From: Escherichia phage vB_EcoM_G2248
Sequence record: MK327932.1
Reading direction: 5' to 3' (one strand)
Length of the DNA stretch: 64,000 nt
A program made the position numbers and the translations under genes. Below the pieces are notes generated by a model. That model worked only from the letters and a program-made list of their open reading frames with translations, had not been told where the DNA came from and made no database searches. Within the stretch, counting starts at the first letter, position 1; every line of letters begins with the position of its first letter. This document shows, one piece after another, positions 8,526 to 52,612 of the stretch.

Positions 8526-8839
8526 TATCCTAAAATCCTCACCTTGCGAACACAGATAGTATTGAGTTCCCGCCGTACCCGTTCTTTTTCATATTCAGGA
8601 ATTTTGTATTCTATACCATCCCGAACAATTTCAGAAGATCGGATTATACCAAATTTTCTTTTAGGCACAACCTTGTATTTCGGTTCGCCTGCCAATAGAC
8701 TCTCACAATAATCTATCTGATCACACATTGACGCTAACGCAGCATCATGTGTTTCGCAAGTTAGGACGCGACCTTTCGCGTCCACTGAGTATTGAAAGAA
8801 TCCGTCTTTATCACGATAACATACAGCAAATACATGCAT
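8525..8839 (-). CDS. hypothetical protein (dda.1 position)
   Basis: 104-aa ORF, start overlaps upstream stop. Confidence 0.5.
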   Translation of the reverse strand: MHVFAVCYRDKDGFFQYSVDAKGRVLTCETHDAALASMCDQIDYCESLLAGEPKYKVVPKRKFGIIRSSEIVRDGIEYKIPEYEKERVRRELNTICVRKVRILG

Positions 8840-9594
8840 TATAAACCTACCTTCGCTTTCATCAATTCAATCCACGACGCATCAATCGGAAGCCCGTATT
8901 TCACGCGTTCTTTTTGTGCTGGCGTTAAGTTCTCATACTTAGAAAGAGATTCAATCAAAACGCTGGTATATTTTAGCACGATTTCGGTATTGTTTGCAAT
9001 AGCCTTGAGTTTTTCCTCTTTCTTGTTGATTTCGCTAAGGGCTTGCTTGAGATCTGCAATTTTCTGATAACGTTCTTCCATACGGAAGATAGTATTTTTA
9101 ATCGCTCGCTCGGCTGCCTCTGCTTTCTCCGGTTCGTTGTGCTTTTTGTGGCGCTCGATTGCTAATTTCTTTTCTTCGATTGCTATTTCCTGATTTTTGA
9201 TGCGATTCTCGTTAAGTTCGATCCACTCGATGTACTTCGCACGTAGGGCAATTTCATCATCAGAAAGTTTACCGTTAGTTCCTAGTTCCTGAATCTCTTT
9301 AAGAGATTCGATAGTGTGATTGCCACGGAAAGAATTATATTTCAGTTTAACCGGAATTACATTGCCATCAACATATCCCAGATTGCAATCAATGCGCTCT
9401 AAGGAGAGTCCGTCATCACCTTCACCGAAAGCCTCACCTGAATAGGCGCAATGAGTCTGACGGTAAATGTTACGCACAGTGACTAAGCTCATAGAGAAGT
9501 CTTTGTTGCGACGTGAAGCGCCAGCCATGATAGAGTTCAGACGGAAAACAACCAGCGCCAGTTCTTCGTTAGATTTAAAAGCAAACAGTTTCAT
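8839..9594 (-). CDS. hypothetical protein with K/E-rich coiled-coil C-terminus (srd position)
   Basis: 251-aa ORF; ATG at 9592-9594 with GGAGAATCAATTATG; promoter cassette at 9624-9652. Confidence 0.5.
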   Translation of the reverse strand: MKLFAFKSNEELALVVFRLNSIMAGASRRNKDFSMSLVTVRNIYRQTHCAYSGEAFGEGDDGLSLERIDCNLGYVDGNVIPVKLKYNSFRGNHTIESLKEIQELGTNGKLSDDEIALRAKYIEWIELNENRIKNQEIAIEEKKLAIERHKKHNEPEKAEAAERAIKNTIFRMEERYQKIADLKQALSEINKKEEKLKAIANNTEIVLKYTSVLIESLSKYENLTPAQKERVKYGLPIDASWIELMKAKVGL

Positions 9595-9655: not shown

Positions 9656-10159
9656 TTAAATTAAAGAAAATTTGTAAATCTCTATCAGATCGCCATTACA
9701 CGCGTAAACTTCCTCGATCTCATCAAGGATCATGGTCGTCCCTGTCTTGTATATGCACTCGCGCTCATCTGCCAACATAGCATACAAAGACAGTCGAGTA
9801 GTCGGATTGTCATACTCTTTAGACACCACTCGGTCAATAGCATGTTCGTAATAATTCATGCAAGGCTTGGTAGGTTTTATTGCAATAATCTTTCCTGTTG
9901 CATAAACATCGGTTGCAAAGTCCTCTGCTGTTGATTGCAGTGGCGTAAAGCTCATAGGACGCTCTACAACGAAAGAATCACCTACAATTAAGGTATCCAG
10001 CTTACGGCCTTCTCTTTTGCTCACACCGCGATACAAGGCTTCATGATGCACTAACCGCTCAGTCTTTTCGATCAATCCATTAAGGATCGACATATCGATA
10101 TTTTCTTTAGAGTTCATCACTTCATCAATGATGTTAAGTTCTTCTGGTGTAAATTGCAT
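9656..10159 (-). CDS. ADP-ribosyltransferase, ModA/ModB-like
   Basis: 167 aa at the T4 modA/modB position; R-S-ExE-like triad candidates (LYRG, QSTAED, ADERE). Confidence 0.5.
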   Translation of the reverse strand: MQFTPEELNIIDEVMNSKENIDMSILNGLIEKTERLVHHEALYRGVSKREGRKLDTLIVGDSFVVERPMSFTPLQSTAEDFATDVYATGKIIAIKPTKPCMNYYEHAIDRVVSKEYDNPTTRLSLYAMLADERECIYKTGTTMILDEIEEVYACNGDLIEIYKFSLI

Positions 10160-11799: not shown

Positions 11800-12003
11800 T
11801 TATAGCTCAAATTTCATGAAAGTTCCTACACTTTCATTTTCATTCTCTCCGTTTTCATCTAAGCCAAATTTGTAGACACTACCATCTGGCGATGTGTAAG
11901 AGAATACACGAAAACGGCCTACCGAATCAAGTTCTGTAAATTCATATTCTTTTCCGGCTTCAAAAAGTGCATATGTGCTTTTAAGACATTTCATCGTAAT
12001 CAT
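11800..12003 (-). CDS. hypothetical protein
   Basis: 67-aa ORF, start overlaps upstream stop (ATGA). Confidence 0.45.
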   Translation of the reverse strand: MITMKCLKSTYALFEAGKEYEFTELDSVGRFRVFSYTSPDGSVYKFGLDENGENENESVGTFMKFEL

Positions 12004-12143
12004 TTAAGCGCCACCGACAACAGAATGAGAACTACACCAACATACATTGTGATCTCGGATAACTTTTCTGTTTTTGTTTTGTGTCCAGATAATCCGAAAA
12101 CAACAACACCGATAATAGCGGACAGCAAGCCAACGATAAACAT
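12000..12143 (-). CDS. small membrane protein (47 aa)
   Basis: untracked ORF MFIVGLLSAIIGVVVFGL...; single TM segment; stop overlaps next ATG. Confidence 0.35.
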   Translation of the reverse strand: MFIVGLLSAIIGVVVFGLSGHKTKTEKLSEITMYVGVVLILLSVALK

Positions 12144-12150
12144 GATGATA

Positions 12151-12327
12151 CTAAGCACCGTCTTTCTCCTTTTTGCGTTTTTCTTTACCCGCTACACTAG
12201 GTCCACGATTGGTAATAGATCCGCTCGTTTCACCTGCTGCGATCTTCTCAGGATTGCCGCCAGCATCGCCAGCGGTCATATCTTCTTTGAGTTTATTTTC
12301 TTCAACAAACTGTTTAAATCCAATCAT
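12151..12327 (-). CDS. hypothetical small protein (58 aa)
   Basis: untracked ORF; ATG overlaps stop of upstream gene (ATGA). Confidence 0.3.
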   Translation of the reverse strand: MIGFKQFVEENKLKEDMTAGDAGGNPEKIAAGETSGSITNRGPSVAGKEKRKKEKDGA

Positions 12328-12701
12328 AGAATAATCTCTTTCAGTAAGTCAACAATTTGGTCTTTCGTCAGTTTATCCTGATTCTCTACAATCTTGATAA
12401 CACAAGCATTAACATCTTTTCGAGTCACGCGGGAGATCGTTTTAATACGATGAAACGGTTCGTAGAAATATACTGCTTCATTATAGAGCGCAGCAATTTT
12501 TCGACGCATTTGATCTTTATCTGACAAGAAAACAAGTGCTGTTTTATGACCTTCTACACCCGCCACGTTATATAGTTCAGCAACACCCCAGCGACCTTCC
12601 GGTTCAATCATTCCGGCGTGTTTACCGTCGATAAAAATAAGAATATCTCCGTTGAATGCGGTTTTGAATGCTACATCTTCCGGCGTAATCATATTTTTCA
12701 T
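12324..12701 (-). CDS. hypothetical protein
   Basis: 125-aa ORF in the 61-41 interval. Confidence 0.5.
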   Translation of the reverse strand: MKNMITPEDVAFKTAFNGDILIFIDGKHAGMIEPEGRWGVAELYNVAGVEGHKTALVFLSDKDQMRRKIAALYNEAVYFYEPFHRIKTISRVTRKDVNACVIKIVENQDKLTKDQIVDLLKEIIL

Positions 12702-12731
12702 AATATAGTCTCCTTAGAGTTTCATTATAGA

Positions 12732-13367
12732 TCAAGCGAATGTAGAAAGCAAATGTTTTGTTTCTTTCAGTTGTCGTTCAAGATCTTTGCGTTTCTCTTT
12801 AAGTTGCATTTTAGCATTATTTCGCTGTTTTTCAACATCTTTATCAATACTCTTATTCCAGTTATCAATATCAGAATAAGTTGGCATACCCAATTCTAGA
12901 CCTAATGCGGTTGGATACAGGGTAACAGTCCATAAACCGCTAATCTTCTTAAATAGGTCGGGGTGTAGTGTACTATCTACATCTTCCGGTGTCAACTCTT
13001 TTTCTTCTTTCAGTGGTGGGATCTCGTCATATGGTTCCAGTGCATTTACTTTAATATCAGATACCTCATCAAAGAATCCGCGTACATCCGCAGGAAATAC
13101 ACAAGCAATTTCCCAACCGTGATCACGCAGAGAAGTAATATTTTTCACTCCCCCGCCATGTGTGATGATTGATGTGACATTGCCATCAAGGTCCACCGAA
13201 TTTACGAGAAATGGCTTATCGTCTGTCAGATCATTATAAAACTGTGCTTCGGCTGTAGTCATCTCCAGAAACAGATCTCGGATCGGACGACCATCAGGTG
13301 CGTTACCTTCCTTGAGAGTATAAAAGCGACTTACGATCCATTTTGGCGGTAAAGCATTAGCGATCAT
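12732..13367 (-). CDS. hypothetical protein
   Basis: 211-aa ORF immediately downstream of 41; acidic middle region, basic coiled-coil tail. Confidence 0.5.
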   Translation of the reverse strand: MIANALPPKWIVSRFYTLKEGNAPDGRPIRDLFLEMTTAEAQFYNDLTDDKPFLVNSVDLDGNVTSIITHGGGVKNITSLRDHGWEIACVFPADVRGFFDEVSDIKVNALEPYDEIPPLKEEKELTPEDVDSTLHPDLFKKISGLWTVTLYPTALGLELGMPTYSDIDNWNKSIDKDVEKQRNNAKMQLKEKRKDLERQLKETKHLLSTFA

Positions 13368-49815: not shown

Positions 49816-50412
49816 TTAGTTGGTAGTGCCGTCAATAAAATGTTTACGGCACACAGAAACATATTTATCCTCTGCACCAACTTCTATTTGAGCACCATCG
49901 CGAACAACATTACCCTCTTTATCTACACGAAGGACCATAGTTGCTTTCTTACCGCAATGACAAATACCCTTCATTTCGACCAGTTTATCAGCAAATGCCA
50001 TCAATGCCGCAGATCCTTCAAATAGATTGCCCTGAAAGTCGGTGCGAAGCCCATAACACAAAACAGGGATATTGGCATCATCAACCAGTGCACACAAGCC
50101 TAAAACATGCTCTTTAGTCATAAATTGGGCTTCATCTACAAACACAGCAGCAGGACGCCAGCGATCTGGTCTACGCTTACCTAGTGATTCACGATAAACC
50201 AAATCGAAAAGATCATCTGATTTAGTGAATGTGATCGCTGGAGCACTTAGACCAATTCGGGAAACAACTTCACTCTCTGAATCTCGATTATCAATCGCTG
50301 GCTTAAGAATCAATACTCGCATATCACGTTCGGTATAGTTATAAGCACTTTGTAACAGAGAAGTTGATTTGCCAGCGTTCATAGATGCATAGTAGAAATA
50401 TAATTGCGCCAT
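49816..50412 (-). CDS. tk: thymidine kinase
   Basis: 198 aa; P-loop SMNAGKST and C-terminal zinc ribbon CHCG...CRKH. Confidence 0.9.
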   Translation of the reverse strand: MAQLYFYYASMNAGKSTSLLQSAYNYTERDMRVLILKPAIDNRDSESEVVSRIGLSAPAITFTKSDDLFDLVYRESLGKRRPDRWRPAAVFVDEAQFMTKEHVLGLCALVDDANIPVLCYGLRTDFQGNLFEGSAALMAFADKLVEMKGICHCGKKATMVLRVDKEGNVVRDGAQIEVGAEDKYVSVCRKHFIDGTTN

Positions 50413-50705
50413 TAATTAATCTCCAAAAATCCAACAAGACCTAAACCGATATAAGTCCAGATACCAATGAAAAAGATGTTAATGCTCATGGCAAGGATAA
50501 ACCCTTTCAGAGTTTTGGGATACCCGACCCAATATTCCAGACCATCTTCTAACCGGATCAACTTATTGCCTTGCGAGTCCATATCAACTACAACATGTTT
50601 ATTTCGAGATTGCAATAGATATTGTTTTACAATCTCTACACCCGCCATAATAACAATAACGAAAATAAAAGTCCACACAACAAGATTAATGATAGTCTCA
50701 AGCAT
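50412..50705 (-). CDS. small membrane protein
   Basis: 97 aa, two hydrophobic segments. Confidence 0.45.
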   Translation of the reverse strand: MLETIINLVVWTFIFVIVIMAGVEIVKQYLLQSRNKHVVVDMDSQGNKLIRLEDGLEYWVGYPKTLKGFILAMSINIFFIGIWTYIGLGLVGFLEIN

Positions 50706-50940
50706 TTTCTATCACCTCCACCCAATCAGGTGTTTCCTGAAAGACTCCTTCACCTTCATGATGGTCGCAACCTTTATTGCTGCAATACATCCACCAATCC
50801 CACATTCCCCACGGTAAACGCTGCATATCGTCGTTACAGCAAGTGAATACAATAGGCCAACCACATCTACCACAACGGCAGTTTTCCTTCATGTGAGCGG
50901 TATTAGGCTTCTTCATAGATGACTCCAATATAATCGACAT
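50698..50940 (-). CDS. Cys-rich zinc-ribbon-like protein
   Basis: 80 aa; CRCGRCG...CCND...CSNKGC. Confidence 0.4.
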   Translation of the reverse strand: MSIILESSMKKPNTAHMKENCRCGRCGWPIVFTCCNDDMQRLPWGMWDWWMYCSNKGCDHHEGEGVFQETPDWVEVIENA

Positions 50941-51143
50941 TTACATTTAGGGCAATGCGGTTCTTTAATATAATACCCGTCTGTCTTTGGAACACTAACA
51001 GGAGCGGTTTTTATATTGTATTCAGTGAAACAACGAAAACAAGTTACGTTTTCTACAGACTGACGTTTCACCCAATCACCGGAATAGAGATCATTTTTAT
51101 TTGTCATATTCCACCACCACAATGTTAATGTCTGGAGTGGCAA
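50913..51143 (-). CDS. Cys-rich zinc-ribbon-like protein
   Basis: 76 aa; CFRCF...CPKCKC. Confidence 0.4.
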   Translation of the reverse strand: MPLQTLTLWWWNMTNKNDLYSGDWVKRQSVENVTCFRCFTEYNIKTAPVSVPKTDGYYIKEPHCPKCKCRLYWSHL

Positions 51144-51552
51144 TATTAATGATTTCTTCTACACATTCCCACTCAAGGCCACCGATACCGCAACCGATTT
51201 TAGGAATATAGAAAGGCTGTATAGCACCTTCAAAAACATCATTGAGAGCCTCAAATCCTTTCAGGATAGCACCATATTCAGCATTTGGACCCGGTCGGAA
51301 TTGGGTATAGAGATTAACCCCGCACCAATTATAACCATTAACTTGATGCGTCCAGACACTAAACCCACCCAGCTTTTCGACCTTACCGCGAGAAGTTTGC
51401 TTGTCAATCTCTAACGCTTGCGGGAACTCTTTCGCGATCTTCGCAGCAATACCAGCGCCCATAGTATGAAAACAATTACAACCATGAATTAAATGACCTT
51501 TTCCTTGTTTAAACAGGGCGATGAGATCGCCCTTTACAGTATCAATAATCAT
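51097..51552 (-). CDS. macro domain protein (ADP-ribose binding/hydrolase fold)
   Basis: 151 aa; VKGDL...HGCNCFHTMGAGIAAKI and IPKIGCGIGGLEWE resemble macro-domain glycine-rich loops. Confidence 0.6.
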   Translation of the reverse strand: MIIDTVKGDLIALFKQGKGHLIHGCNCFHTMGAGIAAKIAKEFPQALEIDKQTSRGKVEKLGGFSVWTHQVNGYNWCGVNLYTQFRPGPNAEYGAILKGFEALNDVFEGAIQPFYIPKIGCGIGGLEWECVEEIINIATPDINIVVVEYDK

Positions 51553-51567
51553 AATATAAACCTCTCA

Positions 51568-51927
51568 TTAGTCACGGGAAGACAACCCAGCCATAAAACG
51601 GCTTAACAGTGTGTCGCGATAAGCAAAGCATAATTGCTTATCAGGGGCAGTATCACACAGGTTGCGTTTTGTTTTAGCAAAGCTGGCAATACTCAGATCC
51701 CATGCTCGATTTTTTCGTTTTTCGTCTCGACCTTGTTTGTATGCTTCATCAAGTTCGAGCGCGATAAAATCACTACACATGTTATCATCATCACAGAAAG
51801 TTTTAATGATCTTTTTGTTGATCTCAAATCCTTTGTATTCGAACTTTGGATAATGGCGCTCATTACTAGCAAGCGCACCAGCCGATAACATCATAGCAAT
51901 CATAGCAATTATTGTCAACTTTTTCAT
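51568..51927 (-). CDS. small secreted protein (signal peptide)
   Basis: 119 aa; N-terminal MKKLTIIAMIAMMLSAGALA. Confidence 0.5.
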   Translation of the reverse strand: MKKLTIIAMIAMMLSAGALASNERHYPKFEYKGFEINKKIIKTFCDDDNMCSDFIALELDEAYKQGRDEKRKNRAWDLSIASFAKTKRNLCDTAPDKQLCFAYRDTLLSRFMAGLSSRD

Positions 51928-51934
51928 ATATTCC

Positions 51935-52525
51935 TCAATAGCGTTTAGTCTTAAGAATGCCTTTACTCTTTAGATGGTTGGCCTTTTTTAGTACGTCATC
52001 AGCATAACCTAATCCGGCTTTATAGTTCCATCCAGCATTGTAAGAAGCTAGCGCGAGTCGGATATTACCGTTTCGAACATCCAGCCAGTATGCTAACTCA
52101 TCCATCGCGTAGAATGCAGAAACCTCGCGATTCATGATAAAGTTGATAGTCTGGCGATCACTCATTTTAACACCGCGCTTTGCATTTTTCGCTTTCACCG
52201 TTTTAAGGTAATTTTGAAATAATCCATAAGCATGATGATTTTTCTTTGGTGCTAAGTTTGCACCCGCGCTTGATTCTTGCCATGCGATACCCGCCAGGAT
52301 GTGGCCTAAACCCTTTCCGTCATAGCGAATATTCGGATGGTCATTTTTCAACTTACCGCTTTTCTCGAATTGTTCGCCATATTGATAGGCGAAATGTAAA
52401 TTATCTAGTTGGTGTGCTGTAAAGTTGTCTATCGGCGCTTTTTTGATCGGTGCGCTAGTCGATGCGTGTGTAGCACCAACGGCTAGTGACAGACTCAATA
52501 CTATCGCTTTTAGAACTTTTAACAT
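51935..52525 (-). CDS. secreted lytic transglycosylase (SLT domain)
   Basis: 196 aa; signal peptide; SLT catalytic motif GIAWQESS and AYNAGWN. Confidence 0.65.
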   Translation of the reverse strand: MLKVLKAIVLSLSLAVGATHASTSAPIKKAPIDNFTAHQLDNLHFAYQYGEQFEKSGKLKNDHPNIRYDGKGLGHILAGIAWQESSAGANLAPKKNHHAYGLFQNYLKTVKAKNAKRGVKMSDRQTINFIMNREVSAFYAMDELAYWLDVRNGNIRLALASYNAGWNYKAGLGYADDVLKKANHLKSKGILKTKRY

Positions 52526-52612
52526 TAATTTCTCCTGTTTGGCTTAACTTTCTGATTCCATAATATAGCCCTATCACCAGAAAGTCAAGCATTATTTTTA
52601 ACCAATTTTCCA

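What the first reader, a model, noticed from the sequence alone, without database searches (positions are those of the whole stretch)
51097..51552. Phage-encoded macro domain protein
This 151-aa protein has macro-domain glycine-rich loops. Macro domains bind or hydrolyse ADP-ribose adducts; the same genome encodes a Mod-like ADP-ribosyltransferase (9656-10159). Candidate roles are reversing host ADP-ribosylation-based immunity (DarT-type DNA modification), degrading ADP-ribose-derived immune signals, or tuning the phage's own ADP-ribosylation.
Basis: partly seen in the sequence, partly recalled or inferred. Interest (0 to 1): 0.55.

Follow-up and report, generated by a model that had tools for sequence, protein, structure and literature searches.

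The report
Phage Tk.4/AdfM macrodomain, anti-DarT2 enzyme
This gene is the RB49-type phage copy of T4 gene tk.4 (AdfM), a small macrodomain enzyme that most likely strips ADP-ribose off phage DNA to defeat the bacterial DarTG2 defence; the gene family and this role were already reported for T4, so the finding is correct but ordinary.

Summary
The ORF is real: 51097-51552, minus strand, 151 aa. It is a macrodomain by every test: Pfam Macro above threshold, PHROG 335 at E 5e-63, an AlphaFold model with pLDDT 95, and top fold matches to TARG1, Poa1p and DarG.

The window is a Krischvirus (RB49/JSE/GEC-3S-like). The protein is 99% identical to RB49 Tk.4 and 45% identical over its full length to T4 Tk.4. 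Gene order is the same as in T4: regB, vs.1, vs, tk.4, tk, rI.

A 2025 preprint named T4 tk.4 "AdfM". Deleting it makes T4 sensitive to DarTG2. The Mod-like ADP-ribosyltransferase at 9656-10159 is also real but probably unrelated in function.

One point the T4 preprint does not discuss (term search of its text): this family has an invariant glutamine (Q84) where DarG, TARG1 and PhiKZ "AdfM" have the catalytic lysine. Streptomyces SCO6735 has the same glutamine, needs it for activity, and removes thymidine-linked ADP-ribose from DNA.

Nothing was tested biochemically, and no Krischvirus has been tested against DarTG2. Verdict: already known, low interest.

The parts
51097..51552 (-). tk.4 / adfM orthologue. 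Single-domain TARG1-like (ALC1-like class) macrodomain, 151 aa. Key residues: H23, G24, N26, M31-G-A-G34, N80-x-Y-T-Q84, P117, G120-x-G122-x-G-G125.
   Evidence: ORF. Pfam Macro, PHROG 335, NCBIfam/PADLOC DarG N-terminal region. 99.3% identical to RB49 Tk.4. 45% identical to T4 Tk.4, E 7e-46. AF2 pLDDT 95.2. Foldseek TARG1/Poa1p/DarG/BT1257/SCO6735. Residue conservation.
51561..51566 (-). Shine-Dalgarno sequence GAGAGG, 8 nt upstream of the tk.4 ATG and 1 nt after the vs stop codon. This suggests translational coupling with vs.
   Evidence: Read directly from the sequence.
52560..52588 (-). Sigma-70-type promoter-like site TTGACT-17-TATTAT upstream of vs.1. It is the probable early promoter of the vs.1-vs-tk.4-...-tk transcription unit.
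   Evidence: Consensus scan, 10 of 12 matches. The same position is annotated as a promoter in phage GEC-3S. The scan as a whole did not exceed shuffled controls, so this is a lead only.
51568..51927 (-). vs (valyl-tRNA synthetase modifier), the immediate upstream neighbour. It is a synteny anchor and is not proposed to work with tk.4.
   Evidence: PHROG 1256 E 2.8e-33. Annotation in JSE, GEC-3S and T4.
49816..50412 (-). tk (thymidine kinase), the downstream synteny anchor.
   Evidence: ORF. Annotation in JSE, GEC-3S and T4.
9656..10159 (-). It is real, but it lies 41 kb away and probably has no functional link to tk.4.
   Evidence: PHROG 832 E 1e-20. BLASTP to T4 ModB 33% over 113 residues (E 8e-11) and to ModA 23% over 159 residues. 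Adjacent to srd, as modA is in T4. No Pfam, NCBIfam or PADLOC hit.

Best explanation
The gene is the Krischvirus orthologue of T4 tk.4, recently named adfM (anti-DarT factor, macrodomain). It encodes a free-standing 151-aa macrodomain of the TARG1/DarG/SCO6735 (ALC1-like) class. It is probably expressed early, from the vs.1-vs-tk.4-tk transcription unit. The proposed mechanism starts when a host carrying the DarTG2 toxin-antitoxin system is infected and DarT2 attaches ADP-ribose to thymidines in single-stranded phage DNA, which blocks replication. The phage macrodomain then binds the ADP-ribose through its two glycine-rich loops and N26, and hydrolyses the thymine-ribose bond. That restores replicable DNA, so the protein acts as an orphan antitoxin. 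It has no DarT-binding C-terminal domain. Catalysis probably follows the lysine-independent route described for SCO6735, in which the glutamine at the DarG-lysine position (Q84 here) positions the substrate and an activated water, rather than the Lys-dependent route of DarG, TARG1 and PhiKZ AdfM. What is shown here: the ORF, the fold, orthology and synteny with T4 tk.4, and the residue pattern. What is taken from the literature: the T4 knockout phenotype and the SCO6735 enzymology. What is inferred: that this particular protein hydrolyses T-ADPr DNA, that it protects this phage from DarTG2, and that Q84 is catalytically essential.
For: Macrodomain identity: Pfam PF01661 above its gathering score, AF2 pLDDT 95.2, Foldseek probability 1.00 with TM 0.76-0.79 to TARG1 and DarG macrodomains. 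The best curated matches are DarG: NCBIfam NF048014 at E 1.4e-13 and PADLOC DarG at E 7e-15, both covering only the macrodomain part. Orthology: 45% identity and 66% positives over the full length to T4 Tk.4, E 7e-46. Gene order regB-vs.1-vs-tk.4-small ORFs-tk-rI-rI.-1 is identical in T4, JSE, GEC-3S and the window. Function of the orthologue: tk.4 was the only significant hit of a T4 transposon library on a DarTG2 host, and a clean deletion sensitised T4 (10.1101/2025.11.20.689424). Enzymology of the class: thymidine-ADPr reversal is described as a unifying function of ALC1-like macrodomains. SCO6735 has Gln85 at the Lys position, cleaves T-ADPr DNA, rescues cells from DarT toxicity, and is inactivated by Q85A/E (PMC9411070). 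A different phage macrodomain, PhiKZ gp104, was shown in vitro to remove T-ADPr from DNA and to counter DarTG2 (PMC13309987). Active site: N26 (equivalent to TaqDarG N22 and SCO6735 N27), G122 (TaqDarG G119) and Q84 (SCO6735 Q85) are conserved. Q84 is present in 118 of 120 homologues and N26 in all of them.
Against: No biochemistry exists for any Tk.4-type protein. The T4 evidence is genetic and comes from a preprint. This protein is only 45% identical to T4 Tk.4, and I found no paper on a Krischvirus and DarTG2. The residue most critical in DarG (K80) and TARG1 (K84) is Gln here, and TARG1 D125 is Gly. Two other residues that matter in relatives are also not conserved: DarG K29 / SCO6735 K34 corresponds to A33, and SCO6735 K89 to G88. 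Hydrolase activity on T-ADPr is therefore an extrapolation from SCO6735, which is only about 23% identical. The family occurs in 2,737 phage records. Whether that is wider than the known reach of DarTG2 was not tested, so other or additional substrates are plausible. The protein is acidic overall (pI 5.5), unlike SCO6735 or TaqDarG, although the active PhiKZ-type gp104 is acidic too.
Confidence: 0.7

Rival explanations
1. The protein's main substrates are small ADP-ribose derivatives rather than DNA. Candidates are ADP-ribose-1''-phosphate (the basis of the database label 'phosphatase'), O-acetyl-ADP-ribose, or ADPr-derived immune signals or toxins such as gcADPR, His-ADPR or ADPr-1''P. On this reading the DarTG2 phenotype in T4 is a side activity.
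For: Yeast Poa1p, an ADP-ribose-1''-phosphate phosphatase, is among the best fold and profile matches. [quoted passage not shown] The family is very widespread in phages, with 2,737 records.
Against: The only experimental phenotype for an orthologue is specific sensitivity to DarTG2. T4-type RNA repair is not known to generate Appr-1''-p (my own knowledge). No phage macrodomain acting as an anti-Thoeris factor turned up in the papers read; the macrodomain mentioned belongs to the host effector ThsA. The 'phosphatase' label derives from the old domain name A1pp (T4 note 'contains A1pp phosphatase motif'). No assay behind the label turned up in the papers I read.
Confidence: 0.12
2. The protein neutralises DarT2 without catalysis, either by binding and inhibiting the toxin directly or by occupying ADP-ribosylated sites. 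It would then act as an inhibitor or sponge rather than an enzyme.
For: The canonical catalytic lysine is absent. Catalytically dead SCO6735 Q85A still inhibits DarT by interaction (PMC9411070). Other phage anti-DarT factors act through direct interaction with the toxin, for example AdfB of ICP1 (PMC11481870).
Against: The full set of pocket residues is under strong purifying selection across hundreds of divergent phages: H23, G24, N26, G34, N80, Y82, T83, Q84, G120, G122. That pattern fits an enzyme acting on a chemically fixed substrate better than a binder of a fast-evolving toxin. The equivalent Gln is required for hydrolysis in SCO6735. The protein lacks the DarT-binding C-terminal domain of DarG.
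Confidence: 0.1
3. The macrodomain is an eraser for the phage's own ADP-ribosylation by Alt/ModA/ModB-type enzymes. It would limit or time the modification of host RNA polymerase, the translation apparatus, or RNAylated proteins.
For: The same genome encodes a ModA/ModB-like transferase at 9656-10159. Writer-eraser pairs are common in ADP-ribosylation systems.
Against: The two genes are 41 kb apart and their distributions do not match. The macrodomain occurs in 2,737 phage records, including Felixounavirus, Vi01-like, roughly 137-kb coliphages, and Pseudomonas, Vibrio and Acinetobacter phages. Mod-like transferases are detectable in 299 records, and all 30 sampled across the ranking are T4-like. 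T4 Alt and ModA modify arginine (my own knowledge), a linkage that TARG1-like macrodomains are not known to cleave. T4 tk.4 was dispensable on a host without DarTG2.
Confidence: 0.05

Closest known systems
T4 Tk.4 = AdfM (anti-DarT factor macrodomain; NP_049723; bioRxiv 10.1101/2025.11.20.689424)
   Same: Orthologue: 45% identity over the full length, the same size (151 vs 155 aa), and the same position between vs and tk. It shares the signature motifs HGCNCFHTMG(A/S)G, NLYTQ and P(K/R)IG(C/A)GIG.
   Different: It comes from a different genus (Krischvirus rather than Tequatrovirus), about 55% of residues differ, and no experiment has been done on this copy. The Krischvirus protein is closer (68%) to copies in roughly 137-kb coliphages than to T4's copy.
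PhiKZ gp104 'AdfM' and related DarG-like macrodomains of jumbo phages and phiEco32 (PMC13309987)
   Same: A free-standing phage macrodomain of the same structural class with the same proposed job, erasing DarT2 thymidine ADP-ribosylation. This one was shown biochemically and genetically.
   Different: Not orthologous: about 20% identity. PhiKZ-type proteins keep the DarG motif PTK with the catalytic Lys (K78), whereas this family has YTQ. They also occupy different sets of phages, with 271 records for the DarG type and 2,737 for the Tk.4 type. Two groups gave the same name, AdfM, to two separate lineages.
DarG, antitoxin of the DarTG2 toxin-antitoxin system (PDB 5M3E, 5M3I; NCBIfam NF048014)
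   Same: The N-terminal macrodomain has the same fold (TM about 0.78). N22 corresponds to N26, and the glycine loop G117/G119/G121 corresponds to G120/G122/G124.
   Different: There is no C-terminal DarT-binding domain. The NCBIfam match covers positions 2-141 of the 338-position model and scores 50.8 bits against a cut-off of 250. No adjacent darT gene is present. Catalytic K80 is replaced by Q84, and K29 and W83 are not conserved.
Streptomyces coelicolor SCO6735 (PDB 5E3B) and Bacteroides BT1257 (2FG1)
   Same: An ALC1-like macrodomain with Gln at the catalytic-Lys position, plus the His-x-x-Asn motif (H24/N27 corresponds to H23/N26). SCO6735 removes T-ADPr from DNA and protects against DarT without a lysine.
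   Different: Only about 23% identical. SCO6735 K34 and K89 have no counterpart here, and I did not assess whether its 'mobile loop' insertion is present. SCO6735 is a basic chromosomal bacterial protein, whereas this is an acidic phage protein.
Human TARG1 / OARD1 (PDB 4J5R, 4J5S)
   Same: The best fold match (E 2e-10, 30% identity). It shares the MGAGIA loop and the PRIGCG loop, and it also cleaves thymine- and uracil-linked ADP-ribose.
   Different: The TARG1 catalytic dyad K84/D125 corresponds to Q84/G124 here.
AdfN (T4 30.3, NADAR) and AdfA (T4 61.2), the anti-DarTG1 factors
   Same: The same strategy as AdfN: a phage carries an orphan copy of the antitoxin's enzymatic domain to erase DNA ADP-ribosylation (PMC11825919).
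   Different: An unrelated fold. AdfN acts on guanosine-ADPr made by DarT1 and does not counter DarTG2. No AdfA homologue was found in this window, and gene 30.3 would lie outside it.

Membership tests
Macro domain superfamily (Pfam PF01661) | Sequence profile match above the curated threshold | tested here: met
   29.4 bits against a gathering score of 22, covering profile positions 1-118 of 118.
Macro domain superfamily (Pfam PF01661) | Three-layer alpha/beta/alpha macrodomain fold | tested here: met
   AF2 pLDDT 95.2. Foldseek probability 1.00 to many solved macrodomains, TM 0.7-0.79.
Macro domain superfamily (Pfam PF01661) | Glycine-rich ADP-ribose / phosphate-binding loops | tested here: met
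   G32-A-G34 and G120-C-G122-I-G-G125 align with the loops of TARG1, DarG and SCO6735. G34, G120 and G122 are invariant in the family alignment.
T4 Tk.4 / AdfM (Tk.4-type phage macrodomain) | Full-length sequence orthology to T4 Tk.4 | tested here: met
   45% identity, E 7e-46, residues 1-150 against 1-152. PHROG 335 E 5e-63. JSE and RB49 records name the gene tk.4.
T4 Tk.4 / AdfM (Tk.4-type phage macrodomain) | Conserved position between vs and tk in the regB...rI block | tested here: met
T4 Tk.4 / AdfM (Tk.4-type phage macrodomain) | Protects the phage from DarTG2 | not testable with these tools
   Shown only for T4. No paper mentions both a Krischvirus and DarTG2.
T4 Tk.4 / AdfM (Tk.4-type phage macrodomain) | Removes thymidine-linked ADP-ribose from ssDNA | not testable with these tools
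   I found no such assay for any Tk.4-type protein in the papers read. It is inferred from SCO6735, DarG and PhiKZ gp104.
DarG antitoxin (DarTG2; NCBIfam NF048014) | Equivalog-level profile score | tested here: not met
   50.8 bits against a cut-off of 250, with only positions 2-141 of 338 matched.
DarG antitoxin (DarTG2; NCBIfam NF048014) | C-terminal DarT-binding domain | tested here: not met
   The protein is 151 aa and the macrodomain fills all of it.
DarG antitoxin (DarTG2; NCBIfam NF048014) | Catalytic lysine (TaqDarG K80) in the PTK motif | tested here: not met
   Gln84 occupies this column in three independent alignments.
DarG antitoxin (DarTG2; NCBIfam NF048014) | Adjacent darT toxin gene | tested here: not met
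   The neighbours are vs and small zinc-binding-domain ORFs.
TARG1 / OARD1 | Lys84-Asp125 catalytic dyad | tested here: not met
   K84 corresponds to Q84 and D125 to G124.
SCO6735-type (Gln-type) ALC1-like macrodomain hydrolases | Glutamine at the DarG/TARG1 lysine position, required for activity in SCO6735 | tested here: met
   Q84 aligns with SCO6735 Q85 and the BT1257 Gln and is present in 118 of 120 homologues. Its requirement for activity in this protein was not tested.
SCO6735-type (Gln-type) ALC1-like macrodomain hydrolases | Other residues probed in SCO6735 (H24, N27, K34, K89) | tested here: inconclusive
   H23 and N26 are conserved. K34 corresponds to A33 and K89 to G88, so these are not conserved. 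Overall identity is only about 23%.
Poa1p-type ADP-ribose-1''-phosphate phosphatase (source of the database label 'phosphatase') | Phosphatase activity on ADPr-1''-P and the Poa1p active-site residues | not tested
   There is a fold and profile match to Poa1p (E 5e-12; TM 0.71). I did not obtain a residue-level alignment, and the activity cannot be tested here.

The most novel reading that the evidence does not exclude
The Tk.4-type proteins may form a separate, largely phage-borne branch of TARG1-like macrodomains, defined by an invariant HGxNC...NxYTQ signature. On this reading they use a glutamine-dependent, lysine-independent mechanism, and their physiological substrates extend beyond DarT2-modified thymidine in DNA, for example to uracil-ADPr on RNA, Glu/Asp-ADPr on proteins, or products of ADP-ribosylating defences not yet described. 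That would fit their presence in about 5% of sequenced phage genomes, and it would mean that phages recruited macrodomain 'AdfM' erasers at least twice independently, once as the Gln type here and once as the Lys type in PhiKZ and phiEco32.
Probability: 0.3. Interest if true: 0.45.

Novelty: already known. Interest (0 to 1): 0.22.

Why it matters
It matters little as a discovery. The gene has carried a macrodomain or A1pp annotation since the T4 genome record. Its anti-defence role was published for T4 in 2025, and an analogous phage macrodomain was characterised biochemically in 2026.

It is useful as annotation: RB49-like phages, which include phage-therapy candidates, should be predicted to resist DarTG2-carrying E. 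coli through this gene.

Two smaller points may help specialists. First, T4-type AdfM has glutamine in place of the DarG/TARG1 lysine, so assays and inactive controls should target Q84 and N26 rather than a lysine. Second, the name AdfM now covers two non-orthologous macrodomain lineages.

Tried and rejected
- **DarG membership.** I considered filing the protein as a DarG antitoxin because DarG is the best NCBIfam and PADLOC match. I rejected this: the score is far below the cut-off, there is no C-terminal domain, no darT neighbour and no catalytic lysine.
- **TARG1 membership.** I considered TARG1 because it is the best fold hit. I rejected this because the K84/D125 dyad is absent.
- **Charge as a test of DNA binding.** The protein is acidic (pI 5.5), but so is the biochemically active PhiKZ-type gp104 (pI 5.05). 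The measure is uninformative.
- **A second anti-DarT factor.** I looked for an AdfA (T4 61.2) counterpart at the syntenic site beside the primase gene and across the whole window and found none.
- **A second macrodomain.** tblastn with DarG, SCO6735 and T4 Tk.4 found only this locus in the window.
- **Literature.** I searched for Krischvirus plus DarTG2 (0 papers) and for any mention of the catalytic residue in the T4 preprint (none). A search for 'AdfM' alone was swamped by unrelated journal DOIs.
- **Promoters.** The promoter scan gave no more sites than shuffled sequence, so promoter assignments rest mainly on the GEC-3S annotation.
- **Model coordinates.** I could not access the coordinates of the model, so I made no 3D check of the pocket geometry or surface electrostatics.

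Full report
**Observation**

The window contains an ORF on the minus strand from ATG at 51552 to the stop at 51097-51099, encoding 151 aa. It has a GAGAGG Shine-Dalgarno sequence 8 nt upstream, placed one base after the stop codon of the preceding gene. Its last codons overlap the ATG of the next small gene by 11 nt.

**What it is**

Every test identifies the protein as a macrodomain.
- Pfam Macro (PF01661) is matched end to end, at 29.4 bits against a gathering score of 22.
- PHROG 335 is matched at E 5e-63.
- The only NCBIfam and PADLOC matches at E <= 0.1 are to the DarG antitoxin, at E 1.4e-13 and 7e-15. They cover only its N-terminal macrodomain and fall far below the equivalog cut-off.
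- An AlphaFold2 model built on 63 homologues has mean pLDDT 95.2 and pTM 0.89.
- Foldseek against the PDB returns TARG1 (E 2e-10, TM 0.76, 30% identity), yeast Poa1p, the Thermus and Mycobacterium DarG macrodomains (TM 0.74-0.79), BT1257 and SCO6735. All have probability 1.00.

These proteins make up the TARG1-like or 'ALC1-like' class of macrodomains.

**Where it comes from**

The surrounding 2.2 kb is 98% identical to Krischvirus genomes such as RB49, JSE, GEC-3S and KMB43. The protein is 99.3% identical to RB49 Tk.4, and JSE annotates the gene as tk.4. It is 45% identical (66% similar) over its whole length to T4 Tk.4, with E 7e-46. The gene order regB, vs.1, vs, tk.4, small ORFs, tk, rI, rI.-1 is the same in T4 and in the window. 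It is therefore the orthologue of T4 tk.4. RefSeq calls that gene 'phosphatase; contains A1pp phosphatase motif', which is an old name for the macrodomain.

**What is known**

- A November 2025 preprint screened a T4 transposon library on a DarTG2 host. It found tk.4 as the single significant hit and showed that a clean deletion sensitises T4 to DarTG2. The authors named the gene adfM and proposed, without biochemistry, that it removes ADP-ribose from DNA (10.1101/2025.11.20.689424).
- Independently, PhiKZ gp104, also named AdfM, was shown in vitro to remove thymidine-linked ADP-ribose and to protect chimalliviruses from DarTG2. Its active-site residues are N23 and K78 (PMC13309987).
- T4-like phages also carry AdfN, a NADAR enzyme that erases DarT1 guanosine modification but does not counter DarTG2 (PMC11825919).
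- I found no paper that mentions both a Krischvirus and DarTG2.

**Mechanistic detail**

Three independent alignments were used: phmmer to Mtb DarG, a family profile to TARG1 and BT1257, and MAFFT with eight reference macrodomains. All three place Gln84 of this protein in the column of the catalytic lysine, which is TaqDarG K80, TARG1 K84 and PhiKZ K78. TARG1 D125 corresponds to G124.

The glutamine is part of an N80-x-Y-T-Q84 motif that is invariant in a 63-sequence alignment. It is present in 118 of 120 retrieved homologues, and N26, G24 and G34 are present in all of them. T4 Tk.4 has the same motif.

The same column is Gln in SCO6735, BT1257 and ALC1, and Lys in TARG1, both DarGs, PhiKZ-type gp104 and phiEco32 gp37. 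SCO6735 shows that a Gln-type enzyme can do the job. It cleaves T-ADPr DNA efficiently, rescues cells from DarT, and loses all activity on Q85A or Q85E. Its authors propose a water-mediated mechanism in which Gln positions the substrate (PMC9411070).

Of the DarG residues whose mutation impairs activity:
- N22 (here N26) and G119 (here G122) are conserved.
- K29 (here A33, as in TARG1) and K80 (here Q84) are not.

I therefore propose that the Tk.4-type enzymes act like SCO6735 rather than like DarG. This is inference. Term searches of the T4 preprint found no mention of lysine or glutamine.

The ORF at 9656-10159 is a ModA/ModB-like ADP-ribosyltransferase. It matches PHROG 832 at E 1e-20, is 33% identical to the N-terminal part of T4 ModB and 23% to ModA over 159 residues, and lies beside srd as modA does in T4. 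Its LYRG, SFT and ERE segments lie opposite ModA's LWRG, SAS and EQE in those alignments; reading them as the R-S-ExE motif is my interpretation.

A functional pairing with the macrodomain is unlikely, for four reasons.
- The genes are 41 kb apart.
- The macrodomain is found in 2,737 phage records from many groups: T4-like, Felixounavirus, Vi01-like, roughly 137-kb coliphages, and Pseudomonas, Vibrio, Acinetobacter and Aeromonas phages. The transferase is detectable in only 299 records, and all 30 records sampled across the ranking are T4-like.
- T4 Alt and ModA modify arginine (my own knowledge), a linkage this macrodomain class is not known to cleave.
- T4 tk.4 is dispensable without DarTG2.

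Degradation of small ADPr-derived signals was proposed on comparative grounds for phage macrodomains in general (PMC9503650) and cannot be excluded. I found no experimental support for it. A non-catalytic inhibitor role is conceivable because the lysine is missing, but the strict conservation of the whole pocket argues for an enzyme.

**Membership**

The protein is a member of the Macro superfamily and of the Tk.4/AdfM orthologue group. It is not a DarG antitoxin, because it has no C-terminal domain, no darT neighbour, no catalytic lysine and a sub-threshold score. It is not a TARG1-type enzyme, because it lacks the Lys/Asp dyad. It shares the defining Gln with SCO6735-type hydrolases but is only about 23% identical to them and lacks two of their basic residues. 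It is best described as a separate, largely phage-borne branch of the same class.

**Verdict**

The gene family, its fold and its anti-DarTG2 role are already in the literature and databases, so novelty is 'already known' and interest is low. The residual value lies in three points: the Gln-for-Lys active site, the fact that two non-orthologous phage macrodomains now share the name AdfM, and the untested prediction that RB49-like phages resist DarTG2 through this gene.

Noticed in passing
window 51097-51552; L007 (PP925834.1) 2501-2953: The Krischvirus Tk.4 protein is 68% identical to copies in roughly 137-kb coliphages (MiataMamis, Bas59 EduardKellenberger), where the gene sits among hypothetical genes with no vs or tk nearby. 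It is only 45% identical to the syntenic T4 copy. This suggests exchange of the gene between phage lineages, or in-place replacement.
   Followed up: partly
phage collection: Phages carry two separate TARG1-like macrodomain lineages. The Gln-type Tk.4 family occurs in 2,737 records. The Lys-type DarG-like family occurs in 271 records: PhiKZ-like and other jumbo phages, phiEco32-like phages, and Thermus phage phiMa at 83% identity to Taq DarG. Both lineages have been named 'AdfM' by different groups.
   Followed up: partly
window 51890-51918 (-): A near-consensus sigma-70 promoter-like site (TTGACA-17-TATGAT, 11 of 12 matches, with an extended -10 TG) lies just inside the 5' end of vs. It would give a transcript that starts within vs and reads into tk.4. 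It could be an internal promoter for tk.4 or a chance match, since the scan overall did not exceed shuffled controls.
   Followed up: no
window 50913-51107 (-) and 50698-50940 (-): The two small ORFs immediately downstream of tk.4 match the recently defined Pfam 'Phage zinc binding domain' families PF23903 (E 1e-23) and PF23895 (E 1e-33). They occupy the place of T4 tk.3 and tk.2. Their function is unknown.
   Followed up: no
window 51935-52525 (-): The vs.1 orthologue (196 aa) has a hydrophobic N-terminus resembling a signal peptide (read by eye, no predictor run) and a Pfam SLT lytic transglycosylase domain hit (E 5e-6, above the gathering score). The records consulted annotate it only as hypothetical.
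   Followed up: no
window 11800-13367 (-): No homologue of T4 61.2 (AdfA, anti-DarTG1) is present between the primase and helicase genes or anywhere else in the window. A 211-aa ORF (12732-13367) with no similarity to AdfA occupies the corresponding position.
   Followed up: partly
window 8839-9594 (-): The Srd anti-sigma-factor orthologue (PHROG 1400, E 3e-73) also gives weaker matches to HNH / endonuclease VII-type PHROGs (E 5e-12 to 6e-5) over its N-terminal part.
   Followed up: no
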